Below, piece after piece: positions 1,677-12,024 of a stretch of 37,513 bases of DNA. The notes under the pieces are model-generated. The model was not told where the DNA came from, did not search any database, and saw only the letters and a list, made by a program, of their open reading frames with translations. Position 1 is the stretch's first letter. Every line of letters starts with the position of its first letter. This DNA comes from a virus: the IMG/VR virus record IMGVR_UViG_3300045988_075083, positions 1-37,513 of that record; one strand, written 5' to 3'. Both the position numbers and the translations under genes were made by a program.

Positions 1677-2395
1677 GTGAGCAGTGCGGGAAGCTGCGGG
1701 GCACGATTCAGGCCACCGGGGCACTTGCGGGCAGCATGTCCGGCAAGGGGGCTCTGGCCGGGGCTGTGGCGATCCCACAGGTGGTGGGCGGCGCGGGCAG
1801 CTGGGACACACTCCCGGGAAAGCCTTTTGACACCATCGGAGCGGGGCTGAACGTCGTAGGCCGCGCGTTGGAGGTGGACACCACCAACGCGGTAGGGGTG
1901 TTCTACATTGACCTTGAGGGCAACTACCCCAATTATACCTGCCCGGTGGCGATGGCAGACATCGAGGCCGCATATGCAGCGGGGAAGGTGCTGGAATGCC
2001 GGTGCGCGATGGGACAGTACATCGTAACGCTGCCGCTATTTCTGCCGATGCAGGGCTTCGCCACATGGATATTCTCCGGTGTCGGTGCGCTGAAAGCAGC
2101 ACCGTTGGATTTCGATGCGCAGTCGCTGACTATCGCCGTTACCAGTGCTGGCGTGCTGGCCAGCAACACGAGGCTGGCAACGATGGAGGATAAGCTGCCG
2201 AACCCCAACGCGCTGACCATCAAGATTGGCAGCACTACCGTGGGCTATAACGGCGACAACAGTGAGACTGTGGAGATCGCGGACGGTAGTCTGCTTCCCG
2301 CCGTAACAGCTGCTGACAATGGCAAATTTCTGCGTGTTGTTAATGGCGTATGGGCAGCGGCTACAGTTGATAATGCGAATGGGGTGAGTTTCTGA
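1673..2395 (+). CDS. Tail fibre protein (proximal part)
   Basis: Start ATG 1673 (ATGA overlap) preferred over the track start at 1634. N-terminal G/A-rich region (GALAGSMSGKGALAGAVAIP) and position directly upstream of the distal fibre gene. Confidence 0.7.
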   Translation: MSEQCGKLRGTIQATGALAGSMSGKGALAGAVAIPQVVGGAGSWDTLPGKPFDTIGAGLNVVGRALEVDTTNAVGVFYIDLEGNYPNYTCPVAMADIEAAYAAGKVLECRCAMGQYIVTLPLFLPMQGFATWIFSGVGALKAAPLDFDAQSLTIAVTSAGVLASNTRLATMEDKLPNPNALTIKIGSTTVGYNGDNSETVEIADGSLLPAVTAADNGKFLRVVNGVWAAATVDNANGVSF

Positions 2396-3045
2396 TGGCA
2401 ATTGAATATTTAACAAACGATACTGACCTCAAGGCTGTCGCAGATGCTATTAGAGCTAAGACAAGTAGTACTGATGCATTGGTATTCCCTGATGGCTTTG
2501 TGGCGTCTATAAATTCGTTAAATACCCACTCCACTACGTGGGACTTTGCGCAACGTGTGGGGATACTGACGCCCTTCAATGAGACCTACGTATTTGACCC
2601 AGTGTCTCAAACCCCATACCTTCAATATCTTCCAACAGATGACATGCGATGGGTAAATGGCTACCTGAACCGGTCTTCTGGCACTACCAAGCGCCCCACC
2701 GTGTTCGCCGAGAGTACCTGGGCTCCGTCTGTAACTGATGTTACAGAGGCTGGATTTATCCTAAATACCGTTCGGACAGGTTCAGGGATTCTCGTTCCGT
2801 ATTTTATCGCCAAAGGGCAAACCATCCACGTCGCATACACTCACAGCACGACGGACTATGGAGGCTATATTTGGTGCGATAAAAACGGGAAATTCATCGA
2901 CGTTGAGTTTATCGATGGGCTTGGCGCCGGAACGTCCACGTGGAACTACACGGCACCTACAGATGGGTGGATCTACATCATTTTCATGTGCTACGATGAA
3001 AATGCCTCCGCACAATATTCTGACATTTCTGTGACAATTGAGTAG
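2395..3045 (+). CDS. Distal tail fibre / receptor-binding protein, low-GC cassette
   Basis: TGATG coupling to the upstream gene. N-terminus LKAVADAIRAKTSSTDALVFPDGFV is typical of fibre adaptor segments. 2395-2454 has 23/60 G+C (38%) against 57-65% in the flanks. Confidence 0.7.
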   Translation: MAIEYLTNDTDLKAVADAIRAKTSSTDALVFPDGFVASINSLNTHSTTWDFAQRVGILTPFNETYVFDPVSQTPYLQYLPTDDMRWVNGYLNRSSGTTKRPTVFAESTWAPSVTDVTEAGFILNTVRTGSGILVPYFIAKGQTIHVAYTHSTTDYGGYIWCDKNGKFIDVEFIDGLGAGTSTWNYTAPTDGWIYIIFMCYDENASAQYSDISVTIE

Positions 3046-3438: not shown

Positions 3439-3987
3439 ATGGGGCGCAGACTGGACTACAAGCGGCTGGAGGCGGAGTACCCCAACCGGGGCAAGCAGAC
3501 TTACCGGAAGCTGATCCCCATGACGGGGCTGCTCCAAAAGAACTACGGCAAGGAGCTGGACTGTACGCTAACCTCGCTGGCCTGCATCTACGGGGCACGG
3601 TGGTACGGCACCATTGAGCACATCGCCACCAAGCACGGCTATGGCGGCGACAGGAAGGGCACGAATCCTCTGACAGTCAAGGCTATCACCAAGGAACTTC
3701 TACGGGTGCTGCACGAGCCGGGAACGCCCCGCAGCGCCTACGGCAAGGTGGTGGGCTGGAACTGGCTGACGGCCCGCAGGCTGGCGGAACGGGGCATTCC
3801 CGCCGTGCTGAACCTGTGGGACGACGGTCGGGGCTACTACCACGACCACAGCGTGGTGCTGGTGGGCGTGGAGGAGTACCAGCGGGCAAAGTTCCTGCTG
3901 GTGCTGGACAATTGGAGCGAGACGGTGAGCTTGATCGACTACAACAAGCTCTGCGTCGCCTCGAGCCTGAACTGGGTGGAGCCATGA
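3439..3987 (+). CDS. Papain-fold (C39-like) cysteine peptidase domain protein
   Basis: Candidate catalytic Cys in ELDCTLTSLACIYG. Candidate His/Asp-Asn in GYYHDHSVVLVGVEEYQRAKFLLVLDNW. Embedded in the lysis cassette. Confidence 0.55.
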   Translation: MGRRLDYKRLEAEYPNRGKQTYRKLIPMTGLLQKNYGKELDCTLTSLACIYGARWYGTIEHIATKHGYGGDRKGTNPLTVKAITKELLRVLHEPGTPRSAYGKVVGWNWLTARRLAERGIPAVLNLWDDGRGYYHDHSVVLVGVEEYQRAKFLLVLDNWSETVSLIDYNKLCVASSLNWVEP

Positions 3988-4211
3988 GCGGCAAGCGGGT
4001 GGCGAAAAAGCCCAAGATGAAGCGAAGAACAAAGTTCACGATTCTGGCGGTGGTCAACCTGACGTGGTACTGCATCGCCGTGATCGTTGCGGCGTTCTTC
4101 GATAAGATGGTGCCGGACGCGCTGACGGTGGCGTGGTTTTCGGCGTGGACAGTTGAATTGGCCCTGCTGGCAGGGATCAAAATCAAAACGAAAGATGAGG
4201 TAATGTCATGA
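3984..4211 (+). CDS. Putative holin, two TM helices (75 aa)
   Basis: Start ATG 3984 (ATGA overlap). Basic N-terminus KRVAKKPKMKRRTK followed by two hydrophobic helices. Confidence 0.65.
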   Translation: MSGKRVAKKPKMKRRTKFTILAVVNLTWYCIAVIVAAFFDKMVPDALTVAWFSAWTVELALLAGIKIKTKDEVMS

Positions 4212-4573
4212 ATAATCTGAGCTGGGTTGAAATCGTAGTAAGCATTTTGAGCGGTCTGGCCGTGTGCATTCCGCTGGTGGTCAAGCTGGTGCAGACCGTC
4301 AAGGCGGCTGTGCAGGAGAAGAACTGGTCTCAGATCGTGGCCATCGTGCTGGATCTGATGCAGCAGGCGGAGGGCCTGTTTGCCGAAGGAGCGGCCCGCA
4401 AGGCGTGGGTCATGGCGGGCGTGCAGAGCGCCGCCAAGAGCGCCAATTTCCCCTATGACGATGTAGCGGCACAGAAGGTCAGCGAGATGATCGACGCTAT
4501 CTGCGCTGCGGCGAAGGTGGTCAACGGCGAGGGGAAAGCGGATGCAGAGGGAAAAACGGATGCAGCTGATTGA
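4208..4573 (+). CDS. Holin-like protein resembling the LL-H holin family (N-terminal TM, helical C-terminal domain)
   Basis: ATGA overlap. TM segment WVEIVVSILSGLAVCIPLVV, then a helical domain. Directly upstream of the endolysin. Confidence 0.6.
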   Translation: MNNLSWVEIVVSILSGLAVCIPLVVKLVQTVKAAVQEKNWSQIVAIVLDLMQQAEGLFAEGAARKAWVMAGVQSAAKSANFPYDDVAAQKVSEMIDAICAAAKVVNGEGKADAEGKTDAAD

Positions 4574-5435
4574 GAACTTTCTAACGCTGAACCCCTGCTA
4601 TCATGCCAACATGGCCAACGCCGACGACCGGTACACCACGTTCCAGCGGCGCGGCCCTCAAGGGCTGGTACTGCACTCTGTAGGCTGCGCCCAGCCGTCG
4701 GCGCAGGTGTTCACCAAGAAGTGGAACAGCCCCAGCTATGACCGGGCCTGCGTCCACGCGTTCATTGATGCCAACTCCGGCGCGGTGTATCAGTGCCTGC
4801 CGTGGAACTTCCGGGCATGGCATGTAGGCGGCTCCGCCAACAACACCCACGTAGGCGTAGAGATGTGCGAGCCGTCCGCCATCAAGTACACCACCGGGGC
4901 CAAGTTCACCATTACAGACAAGGACAAGGCGTTCAAGCAGTGCGAGACGGCTTATAAGGCCGCCGTGGAGCTATTTGCCATGCTGTGCAAGAAGTATAGC
5001 CTTGACCCGCTGGAGGACGGCGTGATCCTGTCTCATTATGAGTGCGGCAAGCGGGGCATCGGCTCCGGGCACGTCGATCCGGAACACCTGTGGACGGGGC
5101 TGGGCGTCGGCTACACAATGGACGGCTTCCGGCAGGATGTGAAGAGAGCCATGAGCGGCGTTACGGTTGTGCCCACCACACAGCCCGCCGCGCCGGTGGT
5201 CGAAAAGACCGTCACCGTCAAGGTTCGGCAGCTGTCCCGAGGCATGGAGGGCAACGACGTGAAAACCCTGCAAGCGGCGCTGATCGCCAACGGCTTCAGC
5301 TGCGGCAGCGCCGGTACCGACGGCGACTTCGGCGCAGGCACGGAGGCGGCGCTGAAGAAGTTCCAGACCAAATATTCTCTGGGCGCTGACGGTATCGCCG
5401 GTAACGGCACGTGGGGTAAGCTGCTGGGGAAGTAG
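4542..5435 (+). CDS. Endolysin: N-acetylmuramoyl-L-alanine amidase (Amidase_2/PGRP type) with C-terminal PG_binding_1 domain
   Basis: Motifs VLHSVGC, RACVHAFID, WHVGG...NTHVGVEMCEP. C-terminal GNDVKTLQAALIANGF...DGDFGAGTEAALKKFQ...DGIAGNGTW. Alternative start ATG 4560. Confidence 0.9.
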   Translation: MQREKRMQLIENFLTLNPCYHANMANADDRYTTFQRRGPQGLVLHSVGCAQPSAQVFTKKWNSPSYDRACVHAFIDANSGAVYQCLPWNFRAWHVGGSANNTHVGVEMCEPSAIKYTTGAKFTITDKDKAFKQCETAYKAAVELFAMLCKKYSLDPLEDGVILSHYECGKRGIGSGHVDPEHLWTGLGVGYTMDGFRQDVKRAMSGVTVVPTTQPAAPVVEKTVTVKVRQLSRGMEGNDVKTLQAALIANGFSCGSAGTDGDFGAGTEAALKKFQTKYSLGADGIAGNGTWGKLLGK

Positions 5436-5451
5436 TGCCCAAGTCGGGCAC
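5435..5451 (+). other. Small hairpin GTGCCC-AAGTC-GGGCAC abutting the endolysin stop codon; member of a 3-copy motif family
   Basis: 6-bp perfect stem. 15/17 identical to the first 17 nt of the motif at 9879-9899 and 23687-23707. Confidence 0.5.
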
Positions 5452-5533
5452 AAATCTGAGCGAGGCGTGAGGCTACGATCCGCCGCCCTCCGTCTCCGCG
5501 AAAGCTCCGCAAGCTCACGGCGTGGGAATCGCT

Positions 5534-5773
5534 ATGAATCCGACACATCGAGCTATCCGCGCGAAACTACAGTCTATGGCGCCCCAGCGGGCGGTGAGTT
5601 TCGTCACCGGGCTGGAGCTGCCGGGGGACGAGGCGTTCTGTATCATCGAGTGCGACGTGCGGGGGAAGTCCCGCCAGCAGGTGGCCGACCGGCTTTTCGC
5701 GTCGCAGGAATACGTGAAGAAGTGCAGGCGCAGAGGCTACCGCAAGATCGCGGACGCCGTTAATAACAAGTGA
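5534..5773 (+). CDS. Small DNA-binding protein with sigma-70 region-4-like HTH
   Basis: EAFCIIECDVRGKSRQQVADRLFASQEYVKKCRRRGYRKIA resembles a region-4 HTH. Weak RBS; alternative GTG start at 5522. Confidence 0.55.
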   Translation: MNPTHRAIRAKLQSMAPQRAVSFVTGLELPGDEAFCIIECDVRGKSRQQVADRLFASQEYVKKCRRRGYRKIADAVNNK

Positions 5774-5776
5774 AAG

Positions 5777-5828
5777 AAAGACCCAACGGGGACCCTTTTC
5801 AGGCCCTTTGTTGGGTCTTTTTTGTTTT
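5777..5828 (+). terminator. Rho-independent terminator
   Basis: Stem aaagacccaac (5777-5787) pairs with gttgggtcttt (5810-5820), followed by a T-run. Confidence 0.75.
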
Positions 5829-5857
5829 ATGATTTTATCAACAAGGAGGTGCGGACG

Positions 5858-6238
5858 ATGGAATATTTCAATCCCTATCAGCCGATGGGCTACAGAGGCC
5901 CCTACGGATACCCGTCTGGCGACCCTCAGAGCGCCGCAGGAGGCCCGCAGGCGTTCATGGGGCAAGTTACCCGGGTCAACGGCAAGGGCGGCGCAGAGGC
6001 GTTCAGGATGGCCGCCAACAGCTCCATCCTGCTGATGGACGAGCATGACCCCATTGTGTGGCTCAAGACAACAGACGGGGCGGGGTACGCCACGGTGACG
6101 CCGTATTCGGTTGCCCCGTATCAGCCCGCGCCGGTGGTGGACGTCAACAGCCTGGAAGATCGCGTGAAGAGATTGGAGGAGATGCTCAGTGGCAAACCCG
6201 ATGATGCAGATGTTAAGCGGAAGAGCAAAGCCGAATAA
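5858..6238 (+). CDS. Accessory-locus protein A: Pro/Tyr/Gly-rich N-terminus, beta-rich core, C-terminal coiled coil (126 aa)
   Basis: RBS AAGGAGGTG at 5843-5851, ATG 5858. MEYFNPYQPMGYRGPYGYPSGDP..., core FRMAANSSILLMDEHDPIVWLKTTDGAGYATVTPY. Confidence 0.7.
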   Translation: MEYFNPYQPMGYRGPYGYPSGDPQSAAGGPQAFMGQVTRVNGKGGAEAFRMAANSSILLMDEHDPIVWLKTTDGAGYATVTPYSVAPYQPAPVVDVNSLEDRVKRLEEMLSGKPDDADVKRKSKAE

Positions 6239-6401
6239 TCCGCTGGCGATGGTGGCGGAGTTCCGGAAGTTCGCGGCGGGCATGACGCCGCAGAAAGCGG
6301 AGGCGGAGATCAACCGTTTGCTTTCCTCCGGGCAAATGAGCAAAGAGCAGTTTGCAAGCTTGCAGGAGCAAGCAAAGATGTTTGCGCAATTCTTGAGATA
6401 A
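6189..6401 (+). CDS. Accessory-locus protein B: small helical protein (70 aa)
   Basis: GTG 6189 lies 7 nt downstream of GGAGGAG. Overlaps the 3' end of gene A by 50 nt in another frame. MANPMMQML...FRKFAAGMTPQKAEAEINRLLSSGQMSKEQF. Confidence 0.55.
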   Translation: MANPMMQMLSGRAKPNNPLAMVAEFRKFAAGMTPQKAEAEINRLLSSGQMSKEQFASLQEQAKMFAQFLR

Positions 6402-6452
6402 ACCGGGTCGACACGGATTATCATATAATTTTTGATGGAAGGAGCAACACAC

Positions 6453-7058
6453 ATGGGCGAAAATACGAGCCTGTCCGATATCGCCGCCGTCACTCGCGGC
6501 ACGGACAATGAAGGCTGGGGTTCCGGCTGGTTCCTGATCGTCGTACTGTTTCTCTTCATGTTCGGCTTCGGCAGCAACGGCTGGAACCGGCAGGGAGAGT
6601 TCGGCCAGTACGCCACGGCAGCCAGCCAGCAGGAGATCCTTTTCGGCCAGCAGTTCGGCCAGATCAACGACCGCTTGACCAATATTGGCAACGGCATCTG
6701 TAACCTCGGCTACGAGATGCAGGGCAACGTCGGCCAGCTGGGCAAGGAGATGGCGCTGGCGCAGAACGGCACCAACATGACCATTATGCAGACCGGCAAC
6801 GGCATCCAGGCGCAGCTGGCGGAATGCTGCTGCAACACGCAGCGGGCCATCGACAGCGTCAACGCCAATCTGGAAGCCAAGTTCGCCGCACTGGAGAAGT
6901 CCCAGCTGGAGCAGCGGATCGCGGAGCAGTCCGCCCGCATCGCCAGCCTGGAGATGGACAACCGCATGTTCGGCGTCGTCCGTTATCCCAACGGCTACAC
7001 CTACAACGCGGGCATGTCCCCCTTCTGCGCAAGCGGCTGTGGCTGCGGCAACGTGTAA
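6453..7058 (+). CDS. Accessory-locus protein C: single-pass membrane, Q/N/G-rich coiled-coil, cysteine-rich protein (201 aa)
   Basis: RBS GGAAGGAG at 6437-6444, ATG 6453. TM segment WFLIVVLFLFMFGFG. Cys clusters ECCCNTQ and FCASGCGCGNV at the C-terminus. Confidence 0.75.
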   Translation: MGENTSLSDIAAVTRGTDNEGWGSGWFLIVVLFLFMFGFGSNGWNRQGEFGQYATAASQQEILFGQQFGQINDRLTNIGNGICNLGYEMQGNVGQLGKEMALAQNGTNMTIMQTGNGIQAQLAECCCNTQRAIDSVNANLEAKFAALEKSQLEQRIAEQSARIASLEMDNRMFGVVRYPNGYTYNAGMSPFCASGCGCGNV

Positions 7059-7083
7059 GGTTGTTGCAAAATTTGCAACAACC
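7059..7083 (+). other. Perfect 11-bp-arm inverted repeat ggttgttgcaa-aat-ttgcaacaacc immediately after the gene C stop
   Basis: Read directly; could be an RNA hairpin or a protein-binding palindrome. Confidence 0.6.
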
Positions 7084-7108
7084 AGTACGCCCTTTCAGGC
7101 GAGGCAAG

Positions 7109-7139
7109 CGGGGCGGCAATAGCTGCCCCGTATTATTTT
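7109..7139 (+). terminator. Rho-independent terminator between accessory genes C and D
   Basis: Stem cggggcggc / gctgccccg (one mismatch), loop aata, then tattatttt. Confidence 0.6.
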
Positions 7140-7154
7140 GAGGAGGGAATTATC

Positions 7155-7556
7155 ATGAGCAAATCTGCTATCTATACCACGAATACCAGCAAGCCCACCA
7201 TCGCCGTAGGCGGCATCGTACCAGTCGGCGTGACCACGCGCCGGTTCGGCTGCAACATCAAGCAGGACGGCAACACCATCACCCTGTGCGGCCAGGGCTA
7301 CTATTTGGTCAACGTCAGCGCCTCCGTAGCGCCCACCGTGGCAGGCCCTGTCTCTCTGGCTGCCCAAAAGGACGGTGTGGAGATCCTCGGCGCGACCGCG
7401 ACCGAGACCGCTGCCGCCGCCAATGATGCGCTGAATCTTGCCATCACGGCGCTCATCCGCAACGCCTGCGGCTGCGAGAGCAGCATCTTGTCCTTGATTC
7501 TGAGCGGCACCGAGGCTGTTGTAGAGAATCTGGCCGTCACGGTCGAGAAACTGTGA
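7155..7556 (+). CDS. Accessory-locus protein D: BclA C-terminal-domain-like (C1q/TNF-like jelly roll) protein (133 aa)
   Basis: RBS AGGAGGG at 7141-7147. Pattern TITLCGQGYYLVNVSASVAPTVAGPVSLAAQKDGVEILGA...LNLAITALIRNACGC...VTVEKL resembles BclA-CTD-like small proteins. By-eye call only. Confidence 0.65.
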   Translation: MSKSAIYTTNTSKPTIAVGGIVPVGVTTRRFGCNIKQDGNTITLCGQGYYLVNVSASVAPTVAGPVSLAAQKDGVEILGATATETAAAANDALNLAITALIRNACGCESSILSLILSGTEAVVENLAVTVEKL

Positions 7557-7564
7557 GGTGCGGC

Positions 7565-7876
7565 ATGAAGCTGATCCAGAAACTGTCTGAGATGGTCGAC
7601 GAAGAGATCGGCGACGCTCACAAGTACGCCAAGTGCGCCCTGGAGTACAAGGACACCCGGCCCAATCTGGCGAAAGTGTTCTTTGACCTCTCCGCCGCCG
7701 AGACGCAGCACATGACCATCTTGCACACCGAGGTGGCGAAGCTGATCGAGCAGTACCGGCAGGAGAAGGGCGAACCACCCGAGGGCATGAGAGCCGTCTA
7801 TGACTATCTGCACCAAAAACAGATCGACAAGGCGGCGGAAGTCAAGACCTTGCAGGGGATGTACCGGGGCGCGTAG
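7565..7876 (+). CDS. Accessory-locus protein E: helical (ferritin-like/Coat-F-like four-helix) protein (103 aa)
   Basis: RBS GAGGTG at 7555-7560, ATG 7565. DEEIGDAHKYAKCALEYKD...FFDLSAAETQHMTILHTEV. Confidence 0.6.
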   Translation: MKLIQKLSEMVDEEIGDAHKYAKCALEYKDTRPNLAKVFFDLSAAETQHMTILHTEVAKLIEQYRQEKGEPPEGMRAVYDYLHQKQIDKAAEVKTLQGMYRGA

Positions 7877-7885
7877 TCTCCCCTG

Positions 7886-7896
7886 CCGTCTGTAAT
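7886..7896 (+). repeat. Arm-type integrase-binding site candidate CCGTCTGTAAT (P arm)
   Basis: Identical 11-mer also at 8107-8117 and 8119-8129, in the same orientation, flanking the tRNA-like core. Confidence 0.5.
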
Positions 7897-7992
7897 CCAT
7901 ATGTAATTTTTGTGCCAAAGTTGCAAATAGTCGGCTTAAAAACGGCACGGTCGGCCTATGTCTCAAATCCCGCCAAACCACATGAATACAAG

Positions 7993-8033
7993 AAAACCCG
8001 AGGAACCCGCATAGTTCCTCGGTTTTCTCGTTT
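7993..8033. terminator. Bidirectional rho-independent terminator adjacent to the attP core
   Basis: 9-bp perfect stem ccgaggaac / gttcctcgg, loop ccgcata, T-rich on both strands. After integration it would terminate the reconstituted tRNA gene. Confidence 0.6.
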
Positions 8034-8060
8034 GGTGCCCCGTCGGGGATTCGAACCCCG
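8033..8060 (-). other. attP core: 3' fragment of a tRNA gene (T-arm, acceptor 3' strand and CCA), not a complete tRNA
   Basis: Minus strand reads CGGGGTTCGAATCCCCGACGGGGCACCA. The sequence where the anticodon and D arms should lie (8061-8110) has no tRNA features. Confidence 0.7.
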
Positions 8061-8086
8061 TGTAAATTCGACTATAATCGTTGATA

Positions 8087-9115
8087 TTACTGCGTTTCTC
8101 GATTTTCCGTCTGTAATTCCGTCTGTAATTTTGCGTTGAAGTAGTCGTCCAGCTTGGCGGCGACGGCTATCTGCCGAGCGGTCATCGTGTGCTGATAGAC
8201 CGTTTGCAGCATGTTGTCCGTGGCGTGGCCCAGGCGCTCCTGCGAGTACTTATTGGGCACGTTCAGCGCCAGCATAACGGAGGCGTTAATATGGCGCAGG
8301 TCGTGGAATCGGTAGTGCTGGACGCCGGCACGGCGGCAGATGGTCTGAAAGCGAACGTAAAGCCCGCGGCGGGTGTAGGACACGATGCGCTCCCCGTCGT
8401 GAGGAGCGCGGGCCAGCAGCTCCGCTATGTAGTCCGGGATCAGCAGATCGCGCTGAGATGCGTAGGTCTTGGTGGTCTTCTCGCCCTCGTCGACCAGGGC
8501 GCGGCGGATGTGCAGCACGCTGCCGTCCACGTCCGACCACTTGAGGCCGAGGATCTCGGACATACGCAGGCCCAGCCAGATGGCCAGCAGGATGGGCAGC
8601 TCTGCCGGTTCGCCCTGAGCGGAGCACATGATAGCGGCCACATCGTCGTCCGACGGGATGGCGATGTCGTAGCGCTGCTTTTGCGGCATGGTCGTCCTGA
8701 GTACCAGGTCGGGCCGGTACACCGCCATGGCGGCGCTCAGGAGGCCGTGAGCGTTGCGCACCGTCTTAGGGGACTTATCCCGCGCCATGAGGTTGATAGA
8801 CCGCTGCACGTCCTGAGCCGTCAGGCTGTCCACGGGGCGGGGCATCAAGTCCTGGAGGGCGTTGGCCCGGACGCGCCTGTACCCGGCCACCGTGGACGGG
8901 GACAGGACGGCATCCTTGCTCTCGATGTACTTGTCGATAGCCTCACCCACCGTCATGCTGCTCTTGGGCGCCACCTTCGCGCCGCCTTTGATGGCGGCGG
9001 CCTGGCGCTCTACCTCTTTCCTGGTGGCGGCGGTGATGGAGATCCGCTGACGGTCGACCATCATGTTGATATTCCAGTTGCCGGAGGGCAGCTTCGTGGC
9101 CTTTGGTATCTTCAC
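8087..9115 (-). CDS. int: Tyrosine recombinase / phage integrase (342 aa)
   Basis: GTG 9115, 8 nt after GGAGG. N-terminus VKIPKATKLPSGNWNINMMVD. Catalytic-type motifs LGLRMSEILGLKWSDV, HDLRH, LGH, YQHT. The upstream 71 codons of the track ORF are Arg/Pro/Gly-rich junk. Confidence 0.92.
   Translation of the reverse strand: MKIPKATKLPSGNWNINMMVDRQRISITAATRKEVERQAAAIKGGAKVAPKSSMTVGEAIDKYIESKDAVLSPSTVAGYRRVRANALQDLMPRPVDSLTAQDVQRSINLMARDKSPKTVRNAHGLLSAAMAVYRPDLVLRTTMPQKQRYDIAIPSDDDVAAIMCSAQGEPAELPILLAIWLGLRMSEILGLKWSDVDGSVLHIRRALVDEGEKTTKTYASQRDLLIPDYIAELLARAPHDGERIVSYTRRGLYVRFQTICRRAGVQHYRFHDLRHINASVMLALNVPNKYSQERLGHATDNMLQTVYQHTMTARQIAVAAKLDDYFNAKLQTELQTENRETQ
8106..8129 (+). repeat. Tandem 12-bp repeat tccgtctgtaat x2 (P' arm-type site candidates), inside the integrase 3' coding end
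   Basis: Read directly; encodes the duplicated LQTE-LQTE at the integrase C-terminus. Confidence 0.5.
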
Positions 9116-9129
9116 GTCTCTTTCCTCCC

Positions 9130-9678
9130 CTACTCCTCCGAGGCGATGCGGCGGGCGTAGCGCAGGGCGGAGAACAGCGCGGAGGACATGACGCCGAAGG
9201 CGATGGCCACCAGGGCGATGATGCCCCACGCGCCGGCGCCCACCTGGCCGCCCTTGATGAGGCCCGCGTCCTTGATGCGGAAATCCATCACGATATAGAA
9301 AATCAGCGTCACCGAGAGGACGGCACACAGAAAGGACAGGACAAGGATCGTCGACAGGCGGCTTTTGTCCAATTCTTTCCGCAGGCTGTTGACCTCGGTC
9401 AGGCGCTGATTTTCGCTATTCATACGATCTTCTTTCAGCTGCCGCCGCAGCCGCGCTTCGACGTCCTCGGCGGGTGTAATACAGAGGCACTCGTCGATAG
9501 AGACACCCAGGAATTTGCAGATCAGCCCGGCGTAAACGAGGCCGGGTACCTTGCTGGTGGCCGCGAAAAAGTTCTTGACGCTGGACAGGGGGATGCCTGT
9601 TGCATCGGCGATGTCCTGGTTGGTGTAGCCGAGACGGTCTCGCGCCTCTCGGCATTTTTCTTGCAGCTTTTGTACCAT
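9130..9678 (-). CDS. Membrane-anchored XRE-family HTH regulator (HTH, coiled coil, two TM helices; 182 aa)
   Basis: ATG 9678 with RBS AAGGAGAG. HTH LGYTNQDIADATGIPLSSVKNFF. TM segments LSTILVLSFLCAVLSVTLIFYIVM and AWGIIALVAIAFGVMSSALFSAL. Stop lies 14 nt upstream of the int start. Confidence 0.8.
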   Translation of the reverse strand: MVQKLQEKCREARDRLGYTNQDIADATGIPLSSVKNFFAATSKVPGLVYAGLICKFLGVSIDECLCITPAEDVEARLRRQLKEDRMNSENQRLTEVNSLRKELDKSRLSTILVLSFLCAVLSVTLIFYIVMDFRIKDAGLIKGGQVGAGAWGIIALVAIAFGVMSSALFSALRYARRIASEE

Positions 9679-9830
9679 TTTCTCTCCTTCGACCCCTTTC
9701 TGGGTCGGCCCGGCCCAAATCTTGGCCGTCGAGCCCTGTCGAAAGCCAAGATTCGGGCTTGACCTACCCGACCGAAAATTGCTACGCTGGACGTGCACCC
9801 GGCAAGCGATGGTGGCGCGGGCCGGATGCG

Positions 9831-9864
9831 AGGCCCCGCCGGCGTTGCGGAGACGGCGGGGCCT
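9831..9864. other. GC-rich 11-bp stem-loop in the 220-nt spacer downstream of the HIRAN/TM2 gene
   Basis: aggccccgccg pairs with cggcggggcct; no U-tract on the transcribed (minus) strand. Confidence 0.5.
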
Positions 9865-9878
9865 TATCAAATCATTTC

Positions 9879-9899
9879 GTGCTCAAGTTGGGCACGGGC
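9879..9899. repeat. 21-nt motif GTGCTCAAGTTGGGCACGGGC (20/21 identical to 23687-23707); its first 17 nt form a hairpin
   Basis: Compared base by base; abuts and overlaps the stop codon of the HIRAN/TM2 gene (9899-9901). Confidence 0.8.
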
Positions 9900-11230
9900 T
9901 ATACATAGTACGGATTGGGCTTGGTCAGCAGGATGATGCAGTCGATCAGCCAGCCGAAGCCGACAAGTCCTAGCGTGAACAAGTAGAGAATCCCAGTGCC
10001 GATCTTGCCCTCGTAAAAGCGGTGGACACCAAAGAAGCCCAGAAACAGGCACAAGAAAAATGCCACCCACTTATTTTTCTCGCGGCCATGTGGCACGGCC
10101 ACGGCGTTGACGTTGTTGATGATTACATTGGGCTGCTGGACGGGCTGCTGATAGGTTTGCGGAGCTGTTGCGGGCCTCCCGCAATTTGTGCAGAATTTTG
10201 CACTTGCTGCAATTTTGCCTCCGCAATACCGGCAAAACCTGGTGGCGGGCGTTGGCGCGACGGGTGTCTCCGCAGAGGGTTTCGTCTCTACGGCGGGCTG
10301 CACCTCCACAGGAAGCTGCGTCTCTACGACAGGCTTTGGCTCGCCCGGAGCTGTGATTTCAAGCTTTGCGTAAAATTCTATCTCGCCACGTTTAATTTGA
10401 ATTTTCCCGTCCTCGTCCTCGTAGAGTTCCTTGTATGGGCCGCCGCCAATGTCTATCTTAACTCGGACATCGTCCTTTTTCAGAAGATTGCGGACGCGGC
10501 TGGTGCTGCTTTTCTTGACGTACCCGATATGGACGCCTCCAACCTCTACGCGGATCGCGTTCGGATCGTACTTGTTTTCTGGTTCATCGACAAGAGCCAC
10601 GTCATCCCTGTACTCTGAGAGATATTGCCATATCCGATCCCCGTCGTCGTAGTTTTCTCTCAGGTAAGACTTGCTCTCATAATAGTCACCATCTTCCTTA
10701 AGCATGTCCTCAATAGCGTCTGTGCGGAAGCTTGTCCCCGCGACCTTAAAGGTATACTTGACCCGCTCGACCGCTTTGGTCGGTTTTGGGGGAGCTTCAC
10801 TTAGATTTTCTACCCGGTTTGACAGCATTCCTTGCGCAGACTTTTTTATGAGATCGGACAGCCTAGCAGCGTCTTCTGCAGAGTTTATGGGGATTTTCCA
10901 GTGGCGCTGATTTTTGTTTTCTACTTGACCGAATCGTGGGTCGTCTCCAATGTCGCTTCCCCAGCAGTCTAGAGATATCCACTTAGATCTGACTCCGGCT
11001 TTTAGGCGGCAGAAGTCGTCCCCATAAGTTGGCCCAACAAACGACAGATACTTTTCCGTGCGTCGCTCAAGGTGAAACTTATCTGCTATGTCTCCAAGTG
11101 CGGAAAAGATTTCTTCGACTATCGGCTTTTCAATATCCGTCAAAACTACTTCTTCCTTGTGCTTATTAACATCTGATGTAACGAATGGCATTCCGTCAGC
11201 AGCTACACCAATCGTGATACGCATAAGCAT
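9899..11230 (-). CDS. Multidomain protein: unknown N-terminal domain, HIRAN domain, Pro-rich linker, zinc ribbon, TM2 membrane domain (443 aa)
   Basis: HIRAN: KVAGTSFR...LVDEPENKYDPNAIRVEVGGVHIGYV. Zinc ribbon: FCRYCGGKIAASAKFCTNCG. TM2: WVAFFLCLFLGFFGVHRFYEGKIGTGILYLFTLGLVGFGWLIDCIILL. The second ATG (11224) has better RBS spacing. The 5' two-thirds is low GC (11101-11160 = 23/60). Confidence 0.85.
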   Translation of the reverse strand: MLMRITIGVAADGMPFVTSDVNKHKEEVVLTDIEKPIVEEIFSALGDIADKFHLERRTEKYLSFVGPTYGDDFCRLKAGVRSKWISLDCWGSDIGDDPRFGQVENKNQRHWKIPINSAEDAARLSDLIKKSAQGMLSNRVENLSEAPPKPTKAVERVKYTFKVAGTSFRTDAIEDMLKEDGDYYESKSYLRENYDDGDRIWQYLSEYRDDVALVDEPENKYDPNAIRVEVGGVHIGYVKKSSTSRVRNLLKKDDVRVKIDIGGGPYKELYEDEDGKIQIKRGEIEFYAKLEITAPGEPKPVVETQLPVEVQPAVETKPSAETPVAPTPATRFCRYCGGKIAASAKFCTNCGRPATAPQTYQQPVQQPNVIINNVNAVAVPHGREKNKWVAFFLCLFLGFFGVHRFYEGKIGTGILYLFTLGLVGFGWLIDCIILLTKPNPYYV

Positions 11231-11306
11231 TCCCTCCCCCTGTGCGATATAATAAATTCTGGCCCCCAGCCAGTGAGCGATAAATTATGGACGGAGGATA
11301 CATATC

Positions 11307-11495
11307 ATGTCAACGCCAGAAAGCCGCTTGCTCCAGATGATCCGCAGTTCCAGCGATCCCGCCGCCGCTCTTGAGGTGGCTATTTCAGTAATCCTTGACT
11401 ACGTAGTGTCAGCTCTACCCCCATCAGAACAGTCTCCTGCTGTTCTTTCGGCACAAGCCGAAACAGGCGCAGCAGATACTGCTCCGCAGGCGTAA
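11307..11495 (+). CDS. Small hypothetical protein (62 aa) converging on and overlapping the repressor gene 3' end
   Basis: Good RBS GGAGGA 8 nt upstream of the ATG. MSTPESRLLQMIRSSSDPAAALEVAISVILDYV resembles small helical proteins I recall from Firmicutes mobile elements. The 116-nt antisense overlap lowers confidence. Confidence 0.4.
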   Translation: MSTPESRLLQMIRSSSDPAAALEVAISVILDYVVSALPPSEQSPAVLSAQAETGAADTAPQA

Positions 11496-11724
11496 CCCGT
11501 TCCTCAACCACCTCGCCATCGGCGGGGTGGTTTTCGTCTTTCATCAGTTCTTCCGCTGTTATTTTGAAGTAATTCGCTATGCGAAGCGCAGTGGCGTCGG
11601 ACGGCAGTCCACCCTTCTTCCAGCGAGTTACGGACGATCTTTCGAGACCAATTTCCAGAATGACCGCCGTCGGCGACTTCCCCACCGAATTGCAAAGCGA
11701 AACAAAATTTTTGTAAAAAGCCAT
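11380..11724 (-). CDS. CI-like repressor, XRE-family HTH (114 aa)
   Basis: MAFYKNFVSLCNSVGKSPTAVILEIGLERSSVTRWKKGGLPSDATALRIANYF. Divergent from a Cro-like gene. Confidence 0.85.
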   Translation of the reverse strand: MAFYKNFVSLCNSVGKSPTAVILEIGLERSSVTRWKKGGLPSDATALRIANYFKITAEELMKDENHPADGEVVEERVTPAEQYLLRLFRLVPKEQQETVLMGVELTLRSQGLLK

Positions 11725-11748
11725 AAAATTTCCTCACATAATTTGTGC

Positions 11749-11777
11749 AGTCTATCAGAAGTTGGTAAAGTTCGCAA
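11749..11777 (-). promoter_or_regulatory. Candidate leftward promoter for the repressor (TTGCGA-17 nt-TAGACT)
   Basis: -35 is the reverse complement of 11772-11777 and -10 of 11749-11754, about 25 nt upstream of ATG 11724. Confidence 0.45.
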
Positions 11778-11784
11778 ATTTGTA

Positions 11785-11814
11785 TTGACAAGTTGGTTTT
11801 GTTGGTTTTATAAT
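11785..11814 (+). promoter_or_regulatory. Strong sigma-A-type rightward promoter (TTGACA-18 nt-TATAAT), overlapped by direct repeats AAGTTGGT/GTTGGTTTT
   Basis: TTGACA at 11785-11790, TATAAT at 11809-11814. AAGTTGGT at 11759-11766 and 11790-11797. GTTGGTTTT at 11792-11800 and 11801-11809. Confidence 0.65.
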
Positions 11815-11964
11815 CCAATCATCCCCCGGGCGGACAGGCCCGCGGGAATGTCCTCCCATAGTATGTCTTGGAAGTCTGACCCTCTCCCTTATCGCACACA
11901 TAGCCAGAAGCAAAGGCATGGAGGCAAACGCCCCTGTGCTGCCGGGTGACGCCGGCGCGCAGAC

Positions 11965-12024
11965 ACGGGTGGTACGTATGGTTTTCTTTTTGATTCTTTT
12001 CGTCTTTCCCATCGTACCACCCGT
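11965..12024 (+). other. 16-bp stem (one bulge) hairpin with a 27-nt pyrimidine-rich loop in the ~250-nt leader upstream of the cro-like gene
   Basis: acgggtggtacgtatgg pairs with ccatcgtaccacccgt. A possible minus-strand promoter, TTGACA (rc of 12034-12039)-17 nt-TACGAT (rc of 12011-12016), overlaps it. Confidence 0.55.

What the first reader, a model, noticed from the sequence alone, without database searches (positions are those of the whole stretch)
5858..7876. Terminator-insulated five-gene accessory locus between the lysis cassette and attP, of unknown function
Seen in sequence: after the endolysin and a small sigma-r4-like gene a strong terminator (5777-5828) closes the late region. 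Then come five rightward genes in two units, A-B-C (5858-7058) and D-E (7155-7876). A terminator at 7109-7139 separates the units and a bidirectional terminator at 7993-8033 ends the locus just before attP. A has a Pro/Tyr/Gly-rich N-terminus and a beta-rich core. B is a 70-aa helical protein overlapping the end of A. C is a membrane-anchored, Q/N-rich coiled coil with 7 Cys (ECCCNTQ, FCASGCGCGNV). D resembles the BclA C-terminal / C1q-TNF jelly roll. E is a helical ferritin-like or Coat-F-like protein. None is needed for virion formation, lysis or lysogeny, and the position (prophage end, own terminators) is the classic lysogenic-conversion slot. Inference: two readings fit. It could be a prophage-encoded cell-envelope or spore-surface module, because Tyr/Pro-rich, Cys-rich, BclA-like and CotF-like proteins together recall exosporium and coat components. 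Or it could be a multi-component exclusion or defence system.
Basis: partly seen in the sequence, partly recalled or inferred. Interest (0 to 1): 0.8.

Follow-up and report, generated by a model that had tools for sequence, protein, structure and literature searches.

The report
Mobile gut-phage membrane stalk-and-head cassette
The five genes are real, and four of them form a self-contained cassette of unknown function that recurs at different positions in thousands of gut phage genomes; it appears to encode a membrane-anchored stalk with an exchangeable head and is not tied to spores.

Summary
Genes A-E, the three terminator hairpins and the position between endolysin and attP/integrase are all present.

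It is A-B-C-D, usually preceded by the sigma-r4-like gene, with E optional. This block recurs in conserved order in about ten phage lineages. It lies after lysis genes, inside head modules, in early regions and next to integrases. Carriers include apparently virulent phages of Clostridium perfringens and Butyrivibrio.

Protein C has a transmembrane anchor, a helix of about 110 residues with a near-invariant Cys-Cys-Cys motif, and a Cys-rich tail. Its family also occurs in crAss-like and other Bacteroides phages, and in viruses assigned to methanogenic archaea.

A phage about 96% identical on both flanks has exactly A-B-C-D replaced by an unrelated version. C's last residues co-vary with the subtype of D, which is BclA_C/C1q-like.

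No Pfam (at threshold), PDB, PADLOC or literature match explains the function.

The spore-surface reading is not supported. My best guess (about 0.3) is an autonomous conflict module, such as superinfection exclusion, acting at the cytoplasmic membrane. A lysis/egress role or a virion role remain open.

The parts
5534..5773 (+). Small sigma-70 region-4-like HTH gene ('sig'). The probable start is the ATG at 5534; the ORF opens at a GTG at 5522.
   Evidence: Pfam Sigma70_r4 E 0.008, below cut-off. The L003 homologue matches PHROG 1190 'RNA polymerase sigma factor' at 4.8e-5. Found directly upstream of A in 169 of 180 sources, including cassettes in head modules. It stays with the backbone in the L196 swap.
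5774..5832 (+). Terminator hairpin with an 18-bp stem, A-run before and T-run after (bidirectional type), between sig and A.
   Evidence: dG -27.2, z -4.75. A hairpin plus T-run in the same place is seen in L003, L177, L179 and many window-type loci.
5858..6238 (+). A: 126 aa with a Pro/Tyr/Gly-rich N-terminal third, a small conserved beta-rich core (VNG..GA.AF....NS.ILL.DE.DPIVWLK.TDGAGY.TVTPY) and a C-terminal leucine-zipper-like helix.
   Evidence: PHROG 21718, 7e-7. Family alignment A2. The AF2 model has low confidence, pLDDT 56. Found in 177 of 180 sources.
6189..6401 (+). B: 70 aa, helical, Met/Asn/Pro/Gln-rich N-terminus, GTG start, overlapping the end of A.
   Evidence: PHROG 22984, 3e-14. 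Found in 176 of 180 sources, always between A and C.
6453..7058 (+). C: 201 aa. It has a short acidic N-tail with an SLSDIAAV motif and a Gly/Trp-flanked transmembrane helix. A single helix runs from about residue 60 to 171 and carries the near-invariant CCC-x-TQRAID motif. The tail is GVVRYP...PFC..GCGCGNV.
   Evidence: PHROG 16490, 5e-14. 3552 relatives. 574 clusters at 50% identity. Alignment A1. AF2 model: helix 60-171, with block-mean pLDDT about 76-96 over roughly residues 70-180.
7059..7142 (+). C-D intergenic region with two strong hairpins (7059-7083 and 7108-7131), the second followed by a T-run.
   Evidence: dG -44, z -7.15. A terminator-like hairpin between C and D is also present in L003 (6835-6860) and L177 (6611-6632), but not in L179.
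7155..7556 (+). D: 133 aa, beta-rich, BclA_C / C1q-TNF-like. One Cys of the CGC/CC motif is invariant across the aligned subtypes (C105 here).
   Evidence: Pfam BclA_C 1.1e-5, below cut-off. PHROG 20016 is shared with the D3-type proteins, at 2e-6 for D versus 3e-64 for D3. Alignment A3. At least 5748 relatives.
7565..7876 (+). E: 103 aa, helical, ferritin/rubrerythrin-like (E...ExxH pattern). An optional companion of the cassette.
   Evidence: Pfam Rubrerythrin 0.003, below cut-off. Other annotators label cluster members as Dps/NapA-like four-helix bundles. Present in 75 of 180 sources. It stays with the backbone in L196.
7988..8031 (.). Bidirectional terminator that ends the locus.
   Evidence: dG -20.6, z -5.67.
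8033..8062 (-). tRNA 3'-end-like segment (T-arm plus acceptor 3' strand); the probable attP core next to the integrase.
   Evidence: Read directly from the sequence. Integrase at 8087-9328 on the minus strand. No complete tRNA found.
5855..7563 (+). The exchange unit. This block, A-B-C-D from the A start codon to the E start codon, is replaced wholesale in otherwise about 96% identical phages.
   Evidence: blastn of the window against L196: window 3447-5854 matches at 96.1% and 7564-10789 at 96.4%, with nothing in between. L196 encodes A*, B*, C* and a D1-type D there.

Best explanation
The locus is one copy of a widespread, self-contained phage accessory cassette (a 'moron'). Its core is the four-gene block A-B-C-D. 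It is usually preceded by a small sigma-region-4-like regulator gene and a terminator, and is here followed by an optional ferritin-like gene E.

Shown:
- The four genes are inherited, moved and exchanged as a unit among phages of strictly anaerobic gut bacteria.
- C is a bitopic membrane protein with a helix of about 110 residues, a near-invariant Cys-Cys-Cys motif and a Cys-rich tail.
- D is a Cys-bearing jelly-roll protein of the BclA_C/C1q type that comes in several subtypes.
- The last residues of C co-vary with the subtype of D.

Inferred:
- C forms a probably trimeric coiled-coil stalk anchored in the cytoplasmic membrane.
- D is a trimeric head that docks on, or is thiol-linked to, the C tail and acts as the specificity part.
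- A and B (a small beta domain plus zipper, and a small helical protein) are adaptors or assembly factors.
- The hairpin after C lowers the amount of D and E relative to A-C.
- The sigma-like protein switches the cassette on independently of the late operon.

Most likely role (a guess): phage-against-phage or phage-against-host conflict at the cell membrane, such as superinfection exclusion. It would be expressed from the prophage, or early or late in lytic growth, depending on where the cassette sits.
For: Co-inheritance:
- The A-B-C-D order is conserved in all Firmicute-phage lineages examined.
- Iterative searches find A in 177, B in 176, C in 179, D in 175 and sig in 169 of 180 sources.

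Mobility. The cassette lies:
- after holin and lysin and before the integrase (window; L186-L189; Dulem virus 33; V. fastidiosa);
- between the minor capsid protein and the scaffold (L003 and L138 types; Dulem virus 35);
- after the receptor-binding protein;
- next to replication genes;
- in the early region of C. perfringens phages.

Accessory nature:
- Dorea phage DO134P1, whose major capsid protein is 52% identical to that of L003, has a Tad2-like anti-defence gene in the same slot instead.

Exact allelic replacement:
- A-B-C-D is replaced between flanks that are about 96% identical.
- The replacement encodes a distant C homologue and non-homologous A and B analogues.

C-D coupling:
- The C-tail ending co-varies with the D subtype in 18 of 18 D1-type combinations versus none of the others.

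Insulation:
- Hairpins are conserved before A and between C and D.

Structure:
- C is modelled as a transmembrane helix plus one long helix.
- Weak profile hits are to trimeric coiled coils: TRAF2, SadA, YbgF.

Host breadth:
- The C family is found in Bacillota, Bacteroidota and archaeal-virus records, so the common target is probably the cytoplasmic membrane.
Against: - There are no expression, localisation or phenotype data.
- There is no PADLOC, NCBIfam or Pfam match to any exclusion or defence protein. The ZorA hits are about 17 bits against a 190-bit cut-off and look like coiled-coil composition.
- A, B, D and E have no signal peptides. The charge bias around the C transmembrane helix is too weak to fix its topology. 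It is therefore unclear whether the stalk and D are on the same side of the membrane.
- The C-tail/D co-variation could simply reflect recombination breakpoints in adjacent DNA.
- Known exclusion systems are usually single genes.
- In several lineages the cassette sits in or beside lysis clusters or head genes. This fits the rivals as well.
- The trimer state is inferred, not predicted by a multimer model.
- Loci were collected by similarity to C, so co-occurrence is conditional on C, and many loci are near-duplicates.
Confidence: 0.3

Rival explanations
1. Lysis or egress accessory. C is a membrane-anchored stalk that acts with, or after, holin and endolysin. The signal-less proteins A, B and D reach it through holin lesions. 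Possible roles are lysis timing or an extra envelope-disruption or release step, by analogy with the i-spanin Rz or with the T4 holin T and its partners.
For: - The cassette directly follows holin and lysin in the window, in L186-L189, in V. fastidiosa, in bajarodcaudo virus 5 and in Ceridwen.
- In crAss-like cr1_1 the C gene lies between a putative holin and the transpeptidase-type lysin. In cr52_1 it lies beside an FtsL/LysB-like protein.
- C has the architecture of an i-spanin: an N-terminal transmembrane helix, a long helix and Cys residues.
- A sigma-like gene at the end of the late operon followed by a terminator could produce a 'very late' expression class.
Against: - The abundant L003 and L138 lineages carry the cassette in the head module, and the C. 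perfringens phages carry it in the early region.
- Phages with about 96% identical holin and lysin carry completely different A-B-C-D versions. That is odd for a host-envelope function.
- There is no lipoprotein partner.
- The hosts of this phage are monoderm. This is inferred from the Oscillospiraceae record titles and the SLH-domain host protein.
- The slot after the lysis genes is a general hot spot for accessory genes.
Confidence: 0.2
2. Optional virion part. C and D form a split fibre, a trimeric coiled-coil shaft plus a TNF-like knob. This would resemble the Sf6 tail-needle knob, the reovirus sigma-1 fibre or the PRD1 P5 spike. The fibre would decorate the head or tail and bind glycans in the gut, with A and B as assembly chaperones.
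For: - None of A, B, D or E has a signal peptide, as expected for proteins assembled in the cytoplasm.
- The cassette lies between the minor capsid protein and the scaffold/major capsid genes in L003, L138, Dulem virus 35 and cr116_1. It lies right after the receptor-binding protein in Dulem virus 36.
- D gives a weak match to the XM1 minor capsid protein (E 0.02).
- C relatives in crAss-like phages were labelled 'viral fibre/spike' by their annotators.
- Swapping of head subtypes is typical of receptor-binding proteins.
- Cys links could stabilise particles outside the host.
Against: - C has a real transmembrane helix with aromatic belts.
- The cassette is insulated by terminators from the structural genes.
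- In C. perfringens phages it lies among early genes.
- A close capsid relative, the Dorea phage, lacks it and has an anti-defence gene in that slot.
- There is no sequence link to any known structural family above threshold.
Confidence: 0.12
3. Lysogenic conversion of the host surface. The prophage would add a cell-envelope, spore-coat or exosporium module built from Tyr/Pro-rich, Cys-rich, BclA-like and ferritin-like proteins assembled in the mother cell.
For: - The locus is at the prophage end, with its own terminators.
- D is BclA_C-like and E is ferritin-like.
- The lack of signal peptides would fit assembly in the mother-cell cytoplasm.
- sig also scores weakly against GerE (E 0.09).
Against: - The cassette is carried by phages regarded as virulent and by phages of hosts that, to my knowledge, do not sporulate (Butyrivibrio).
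- It occurs in C. perfringens phages among early genes.
- C occurs in phages of Gram-negative Bacteroides, including crAss-like phages, and in viruses assigned to archaea.
- No Cot, Exs or Ena family is matched.
- D lacks the collagen-like region that defines BclA.
Confidence: 0.05
4. A redox- or metal-dependent device. The Cys-Cys-Cys layer and the Cys-rich tails of C and D bind a metal or iron-sulfur centre, or form disulfides on exposure to oxygen. The ferritin-like E would be a partner. Phages of strict anaerobes would thereby get a sensor or protection linked to oxygen or iron.
For: - The CCC motif is nearly invariant across very distant C proteins and is duplicated in the archaeal-virus versions.
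- One Cys of the D motif is invariant.
- E has the E...ExxH pattern of diiron proteins.
- Every carrier seen is a phage from gut, rumen or sewage material.
Against: - E is optional (75 of 180 sources).
- No known metal-binding family is matched.
- This idea does not explain the allelic replacement of A-B-C-D or the changing subtypes of D.
Confidence: 0.08

Closest known systems
BclA (Bacillus exosporium filament) and C1q/TNF-family ligands
   Same: D gives its best Pfam match to the BclA C-terminal domain. The combination of an anchored stalk and a trimeric jelly-roll head is the design of BclA, and of TNF ligands, which are type II membrane proteins with a stalk and a TNF-homology domain.
   Different: - The match is below Pfam's cut-off.
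- There is no collagen-like repeat.
- Stalk (C) and head (D) are separate polypeptides.
- The stalk is an alpha-helical coiled coil with a transmembrane anchor.
- The carriers are phages, many of which have non-sporulating or Gram-negative hosts.
Spanins (lambda Rz/Rz1, P2 LysB/LysC)
   Same: - C has an N-terminal transmembrane helix, a long helical domain and conserved Cys, like an i-spanin.
- The cassette often lies next to holin and endolysin genes.
- The B gene overlaps the end of the A gene, which loosely recalls nested spanin genes.
   Different: - There is no outer-membrane lipoprotein partner.
- Most hosts are monoderm.
- There is no sequence similarity.
- The cassette also sits far from lysis genes.
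- It has four components, including a jelly-roll protein.
Superinfection exclusion proteins of phages (lactococcal Sie2009, S. thermophilus Ltp, T4 Imm/Sp, HK97 gp15)
   Same: Both are accessory, patchily distributed, membrane-associated, present in temperate and virulent phages, and often moron-like with their own terminators.
   Different: - Known exclusion proteins are single small proteins.
- They show no similarity to A-D.
- No exclusion phenotype has been tested here.
Trimeric viral fibres with a coiled-coil shaft and jelly-roll knob (reovirus sigma-1, Sf6 tail-needle knob, PRD1 P5)
   Same: There is a long coiled coil and a TNF/jelly-roll-type head, and the head subtypes are exchangeable. 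Annotators of crAss-like genomes labelled C relatives as 'viral fibre/spike'.
   Different: - C carries a true transmembrane helix.
- Shaft and knob are separate genes.
- The cassette is insulated from the structural operons.
- It is absent from close structural relatives.
Zorya ZorA (anti-phage defence)
   Same: ZorA is a membrane-anchored protein with a long coiled-coil tail. C gives weak hits to the ZorA tail region (E 0.0016 and 0.007).
   Different: - The scores are far below cut-off (16.8 against 190 bits).
- C has one transmembrane helix and no MotA-like channel domain.
- There are no ZorB, ZorC or ZorD partners.

Membership tests
Pfam BclA_C (PF18573), for D | Sequence match at or above the curated gathering score | tested here: not met
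   25.7 bits against a cut-off of 38, E 1.1e-5. The L196 D scores 18.3 bits. Among the 120 listed relatives, only P0481 carries a precomputed PF18573 hit.
BclA-type exosporium glycoprotein, for D | N-terminal exosporium-targeting region and collagen-like GXX repeats before the C-terminal domain | tested here: not met
   D is 133 aa and consists of the beta domain only. No GXX repeats are present.
C1q/TNF-like jelly-roll trimer, for D | Ten-strand jelly-roll fold that assembles as a trimer | not tested
Ferritin-like / rubrerythrin (PF02915), for E | Match at the gathering score, and two E...ExxH motifs in a four-helix bundle | tested here: inconclusive
   18.4 bits against 22.8. One E...ExxH pair is conserved in the family, plus a later conserved His. 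The protein is only 103 aa. Fold not modelled.
Sigma-70 region 4 (PF04545), for the upstream gene | Match at the gathering score; regions 2 and 3 present in a true sigma factor | tested here: not met
   16.2 bits against 24.1. At about 80 aa, only a region-4-like HTH can be present. The L003 homologue matches the C-terminal third of PHROG 1190.
Spore coat / exosporium module | Homology to Cot, Exs, Cde or Ena families | tested here: not met
   None in Pfam, NCBIfam or PDB searches.
Spore coat / exosporium module | Restriction to phages of spore-forming hosts | tested here: not met
   Found in Butyrivibrio phage Ceridwen, in crAss-like and Bacteroides phages, and in viruses assigned to Methanomassiliicoccales.
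Known anti-phage defence systems (PADLOC-DB 2.0) | Any component matching a defence-system model | tested here: not met
   Only a 12.7-bit ZorA hit for C. Nothing for A, B, D, E or sig.
Two-component spanin | i-spanin architecture: N-terminal transmembrane helix plus a long helical domain with Cys | tested here: met
   C has a transmembrane helix around residues 26-37, a helix at 60-171 and 7 Cys. This is an architectural match only; there is no sequence similarity.
Two-component spanin | Partner outer-membrane lipoprotein with a lipobox, and a diderm host | tested here: not met
   No lipobox or signal peptide in A, B, D or E. The host lineage is Oscillospiraceae, and host contigs encode an SLH-domain protein.
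Moron (autonomous accessory unit in a phage genome) | Present, absent or replaced among otherwise similar phages | tested here: met
   Exact replacement in L196, L198 and L201. Absent from the Dorea phage slot.
Moron (autonomous accessory unit in a phage genome) | Own terminator | tested here: met
   Hairpins at 5774-5823, 7108-7131 and 7988-8031, conserved in architecture across lineages.
Moron (autonomous accessory unit in a phage genome) | Own promoter | tested here: inconclusive
   No sigma-70-type match upstream of A. Only about 25 nt separate the T-run from the start codon. A conserved AT-rich element (TGTAYCATAWAAG) follows the hairpin in related loci, but its meaning is unknown.
Superinfection exclusion protein | Blocks DNA entry of, or infection by, other phages when expressed | not testable with these tools
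   Needs phage-challenge experiments.

The most novel reading that the evidence does not exclude
A-B-C-D is a previously undescribed multi-protein membrane machine of phages, unrelated to any characterised lysis, exclusion, defence or virion system. Its core protein has a transmembrane anchor, a long coiled coil with a near-invariant Cys-Cys-Cys layer, and a Cys-rich tail. That core is shared by phages of Bacillota and Bacteroidota (including crAss-like phages) and by viruses assigned to methanogenic archaea. Its exchangeable C1q-like head would set specificity.
Probability: 0.35. Interest if true: 0.8.

Novelty: new variant of a known kind. Interest (0 to 1): 0.62.

Why it matters
- The cassette is among the commoner unexplained gene sets in human-gut phages. 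There are thousands of C and D relatives.
- It is exchanged as an exact four-gene unit between near-identical phages. That is the signature expected of genes under conflict-driven selection.
- If it is an exclusion or defence device, it would be a new one acting across very different hosts.
- If it is a lysis or virion accessory, it would add a step or a structure that is not in current models.
- The work also identifies cultured material in which it can be tested: Vescimonas fastidiosa MM35 (a lysogen), Butyrivibrio phage Ceridwen, and the C. perfringens phages XP41-N3 and 17DYC.

Tried and rejected
- Pfam, NCBIfam, PADLOC and PHROGs scans of A-E and sig gave only sub-threshold or 'unknown function' matches.
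- Sequence and profile searches of the PDB with A, D, E and the C alignment gave nothing, or generic coiled coils.
- The AF2 model of A had pLDDT 56, and its Foldseek search of the PDB had no match at E <= 0.001, so both were discarded.
- The AF2 model of C is one long helix, so a fold search was judged pointless.
- hhalign tests gave no significant link. They asked whether the crAss/Bacteroides genes next to C are homologues of A and D, whether B is fused to the N-terminus of Bacteroides-type C, and whether E is related to E3, cp_x175, bu_128 or bu_108. I therefore claim only C as shared with those phages.
- I tried to fix the topology of C by the positive-inside rule. The charge bias is too weak.
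- The Rfam scan of 5300-8200 gave only a meaningless miRNA-hairpin hit on the terminator.
- tRNA scans of the integrated relatives found no tRNA at their junctions; they use another integrase.
- Literature searches for DUF7841, for the four PHROG numbers, and for virion proteomics of C. perfringens siphophages found nothing usable.
- I inspected what replaces the cassette in lysin-related loci that have an integrase. This was uninformative, because those loci share only the lysin's cell-wall-binding domain.
- I considered reading the conserved CATA-type element after the first hairpin as a mother-cell sigma promoter. I dropped this as too speculative.

Full report
**The window**

It is a circularly permuted temperate siphophage genome of about 37.5 kb and about 60% G+C. 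Tail genes run off the right end and continue at the left end. The order that follows is:
- a holin (4208-4573);
- an Amidase_2/PG_binding_1 endolysin (4542-5435);
- the locus in question;
- a tyrosine integrase (8087-9328, minus strand);
- an HTH repressor.

Related contigs are binned with uncultured Oscillospiraceae and other Clostridia.

**Check of the observation**

All five ORFs exist with good ribosome-binding sites.
- The exact 126-aa A protein, 70-aa B protein, 201-aa C protein, 133-aa D protein and 103-aa E protein are on record in public assemblies. This fixes the start of C at 6453 and of E at 7565.
- The three terminators are strong hairpins with T-runs (z-scores -4.75, -7.15 and -5.67). 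No shuffle folded as well.
- C has 7 Cys, as stated.
- D matches BclA_C (E 1.1e-5), E matches Rubrerythrin (E 0.003), and the upstream gene matches Sigma70_r4 (E 0.008). All three are below Pfam's cut-offs.
- Bases 8033-8062 read as the reverse complement of a tRNA 3' end, which fits an attP. No full tRNA is present.
- Integrated relatives show the same genes at the prophage end, followed by host genes.

**Co-occurrence**

With the window proteins as queries, sig-A-B-C-D(-E) is syntenic in the first 15 related loci, which span C identities of 27-95%.

After I added 160 viral contigs and several isolate genomes, iterative profile searches gave these counts out of 180 sources:

| Gene | Sources |
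|---|---|
| A | 177 |
| B | 176 |
| C | 179 |
| D | 175 |
| sig | 169 |
| E | 75 |

Two caveats apply. Loci were fetched by similarity to C, and many are near-duplicates. The independent evidence is the roughly ten distinct phage lineages listed below.

The D proteins fall into several subtypes: D1, D3, and types that begin MACNC or MSCNQ. They align over their whole length with an invariant Cys, and both D1 and D3 hit PHROG 20016.

**The cassette moves**

It lies in the following places:
- After holin and lysin and before the integrase or attR: the window; L186-L189; Dulem virus 33, where an HNH endonuclease gene is inserted between B and C; and the cultured Oscillospiraceae strain Vescimonas fastidiosa MM35.
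- After holin and lysin at the end of the late operon: bajarodcaudo virus 5 and Butyrivibrio phage Ceridwen.
- Between the minor capsid protein (PF06152) and the scaffold/major capsid genes: the very abundant low-G+C L003 and L138 lineages and Dulem virus 35.
- Directly after the receptor-binding protein: Dulem virus 36.
- Beside an integrase and replication genes: Dulem virus 39.
- In the early region, between an antirepressor and Gam/Erf: C. perfringens phages XP41-N3 and 17DYC.

Ceridwen is regarded as virulent by its authors (PMC7372960). That its host does not form spores is my own knowledge.

**The cassette is accessory**

Dorea phage DO134P1 has a major capsid protein 52% identical to that of L003. 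It has no cassette between its minor capsid protein and scaffold genes. A Tad2-like anti-Thoeris protein (PF11195, E 3.5e-25) sits in that slot instead.

**An exact swap**

Phages L196, L198 and L201 match the window at 96.1% over 3447-5854 and at 96.4% over 7564-10789. The block 5855-7563, from the A start codon to the E start codon, has no nucleotide similarity at all.

In its place L196 encodes the following:
- a 134-aa protein with a beta region and a coiled coil;
- a 114-aa helical protein;
- a 178-aa protein with a transmembrane helix, a coiled coil, the motif FCCGVDRRLDAIE and a Cys tail, which jackhmmer links to the whole C family;
- a D1-type D.

The exchange unit is therefore A-B-C-D. 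The sigma-like gene, the first terminator and E belong to the backbone here. Wholesale replacement between near-identical genomes is what one expects of specificity or conflict genes.

**Protein C**

The C family has 3552 word-indexed relatives and 574 clusters at 50% identity, nearly all about 200 aa. No Pfam family and no PDB relative other than generic, mostly trimeric, coiled coils is found.

Conserved features:
- an N-terminal SLADIAAV-type motif;
- a Gly/Trp-flanked transmembrane helix;
- the motif A-x-C-C-C-x-T-Q-R-A-I-D;
- a C-terminal GVVRYP...PFC..GCGC tail.

AF2 models one helix from residue 60 to 171, with block-mean pLDDT about 76-96 over roughly residues 70-180. By my reading of the heptads, the middle Cys falls on the hydrophobic register.

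C proteins with the same features occur more widely:
- at least ten crAss-like phages of several families;
- Bacteroides uniformis phage C3_41T2LP;
- two Caudoviricetes assigned to Methanomassiliicoccales.

Profile E-values are 1e-8 to 1e-16.

In the Bacteroides phages C is followed by a Cys-bearing beta protein and by a protein with a beta region and a coiled coil. It is preceded in cr52_1 and cr1_1 by a DUF7841 gene. hhalign does not show these neighbours to be homologues of D and A, so I claim only C as shared.

**C and D are coupled**

Among otherwise near-identical C tails, those paired with D1-type proteins end in ..GNI..GNV or ..ANI (18 of 18 combinations). Those paired with the other D subtypes end in ..CCA..CNC or ..GCGC. 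This fits contact between the tail and D. It also fits recombination that carries the last codons of C along with D.

**Regulatory layout**

A hairpin plus T-run lies between sig and A in the window, in L003 and in many relatives. In L177 and L179 a similar hairpin lies just upstream of the cassette. A hairpin plus T-run also separates C from D in the window, L003 and L177, but not in L179. I found no convincing sigma-70 promoter for A. A conserved AT-rich element follows the first hairpin.

**What it is not**

- PADLOC has no match. The ZorA hits are far below cut-off.
- No coat, exosporium or Ena family is matched.
- The host range rules out a spore-specific or Gram-positive-wall-specific role for the core protein.
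- A, B, D and E have no signal peptides.
- The charge bias around the C transmembrane helix does not settle its topology.
- No paper in the searchable library mentions these PHROGs or DUF7841.

**Interpretation**

Shown: this is a mobile, exchangeable four-gene accessory unit whose core is a membrane-anchored long helix with a near-invariant Cys triplet, paired with an exchangeable BclA_C-like protein.

Inferred: C forms a trimeric stalk and D a head on its tail. A and B are adaptors. The hairpin after C sets the relative amounts. The sigma-like protein controls expression.

Function is a guess. These features favour a conflict role at the cytoplasmic membrane, such as superinfection exclusion (confidence about 0.3):
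- patchy distribution;
- exact allelic replacement;
- a slot shared with an anti-defence gene;
- insulation by terminators;
- presence in temperate and virulent phages;
- a host range spanning two bacterial phyla and perhaps archaea.

The rivals are:
- a lysis or egress accessory (0.2), supported by frequent adjacency to lysis genes;
- an optional virion fibre (0.12);
- a redox or metal device (0.08);

**Verdict**

- The division into two units and the spore reading are not supported.
- The exclusion/defence reading is open.
- The locus is a member of a large, undescribed cassette family that deserves experiments. Cultured systems for those experiments are named under next steps.

Noticed in passing
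window 9899-11230 (minus strand): A 443-aa protein in the lysogeny module, next to the repressor, combines a HIRAN domain, a zinc ribbon and a C-terminal TM2 membrane domain. This is an unusual membrane-anchored DNA-binding architecture in the place where exclusion genes often sit.
   Followed up: partly
window 8033-8062: The sequence is the reverse complement of a tRNA T-arm plus acceptor 3' end, next to the integrase. It is the probable attP core for integration into a tRNA gene. The tRNA identity was not determined.
   Followed up: partly
L196 7311-9191 (also L198, L201): An alternative allele of the cassette (A*, B*, C*, D) lies in a backbone about 96% identical to the window. It also carries an extra 61-aa Gly-zipper-like ORF just before E.
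   Followed up: yes
L190 6333-6827 (Dorea phage DO134P1): A Tad2-like (anti-Thoeris) domain protein occupies the slot between the minor capsid protein and the scaffold. The L003-type phages carry the cassette in that same slot.
   Followed up: yes
L184 4348-4947, L185 4192-4935; protein P0384: A DUF7841 (PF25223) gene with an Arg/Asp/Tyr-rich tail lies directly upstream of C in crAss-like phages. A DUF7841 segment is also fused after the A core in one Oscillospiraceae-type protein. Similar Arg/Asp/Tyr-rich small proteins follow D in L003, Ceridwen, V. fastidiosa, cr116_1 and the Bacteroides phage.
   Followed up: partly
L179 4713-5090; L138-type loci; L276 gap 3957-4905: A papain-like small protein of about 125 aa (PHROG 3754, with conserved Cys and His) sits just upstream of A in Ceridwen, in L138-type phages and in the V. 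fastidiosa prophage. HExxH proteins (L003 7967-8308, cr116_1, Bacteroides phage) follow the cassette in other lineages.
   Followed up: partly
L193 3678-4229 (Dulem virus 33): An endonuclease gene on the opposite strand is inserted between B and C. This is the only case seen in which the A-B-C-D block is interrupted.
   Followed up: no
L182 and L184, upstream of the C gene: In vir215 and in crAss-like cr52_1 a reverse transcriptase and a tail protein lie a few genes upstream of C. In cr52_1 the tail protein is annotated as similar to the major tropism determinant, which suggests a diversity-generating retroelement. cr52_1 also uses a reassigned stop codon, seen as in-frame stops in its genes.
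   Followed up: no
window 2001-3000 and 10001-12000: G+C drops to 0.50-0.52 against about 0.62 elsewhere. This suggests recently acquired segments in the tail-fibre region and the lysogeny region.
   Followed up: no
window 5805-5857 and the same place in L001, L009, L021, L006: A conserved AT-rich element (T-run then TGTAYCATAWAAGCA) lies between the first terminator and the ribosome-binding site of A. It may be a promoter for a non-sigma-70 factor or a binding site for the sigma-like protein.
   Followed up: partly
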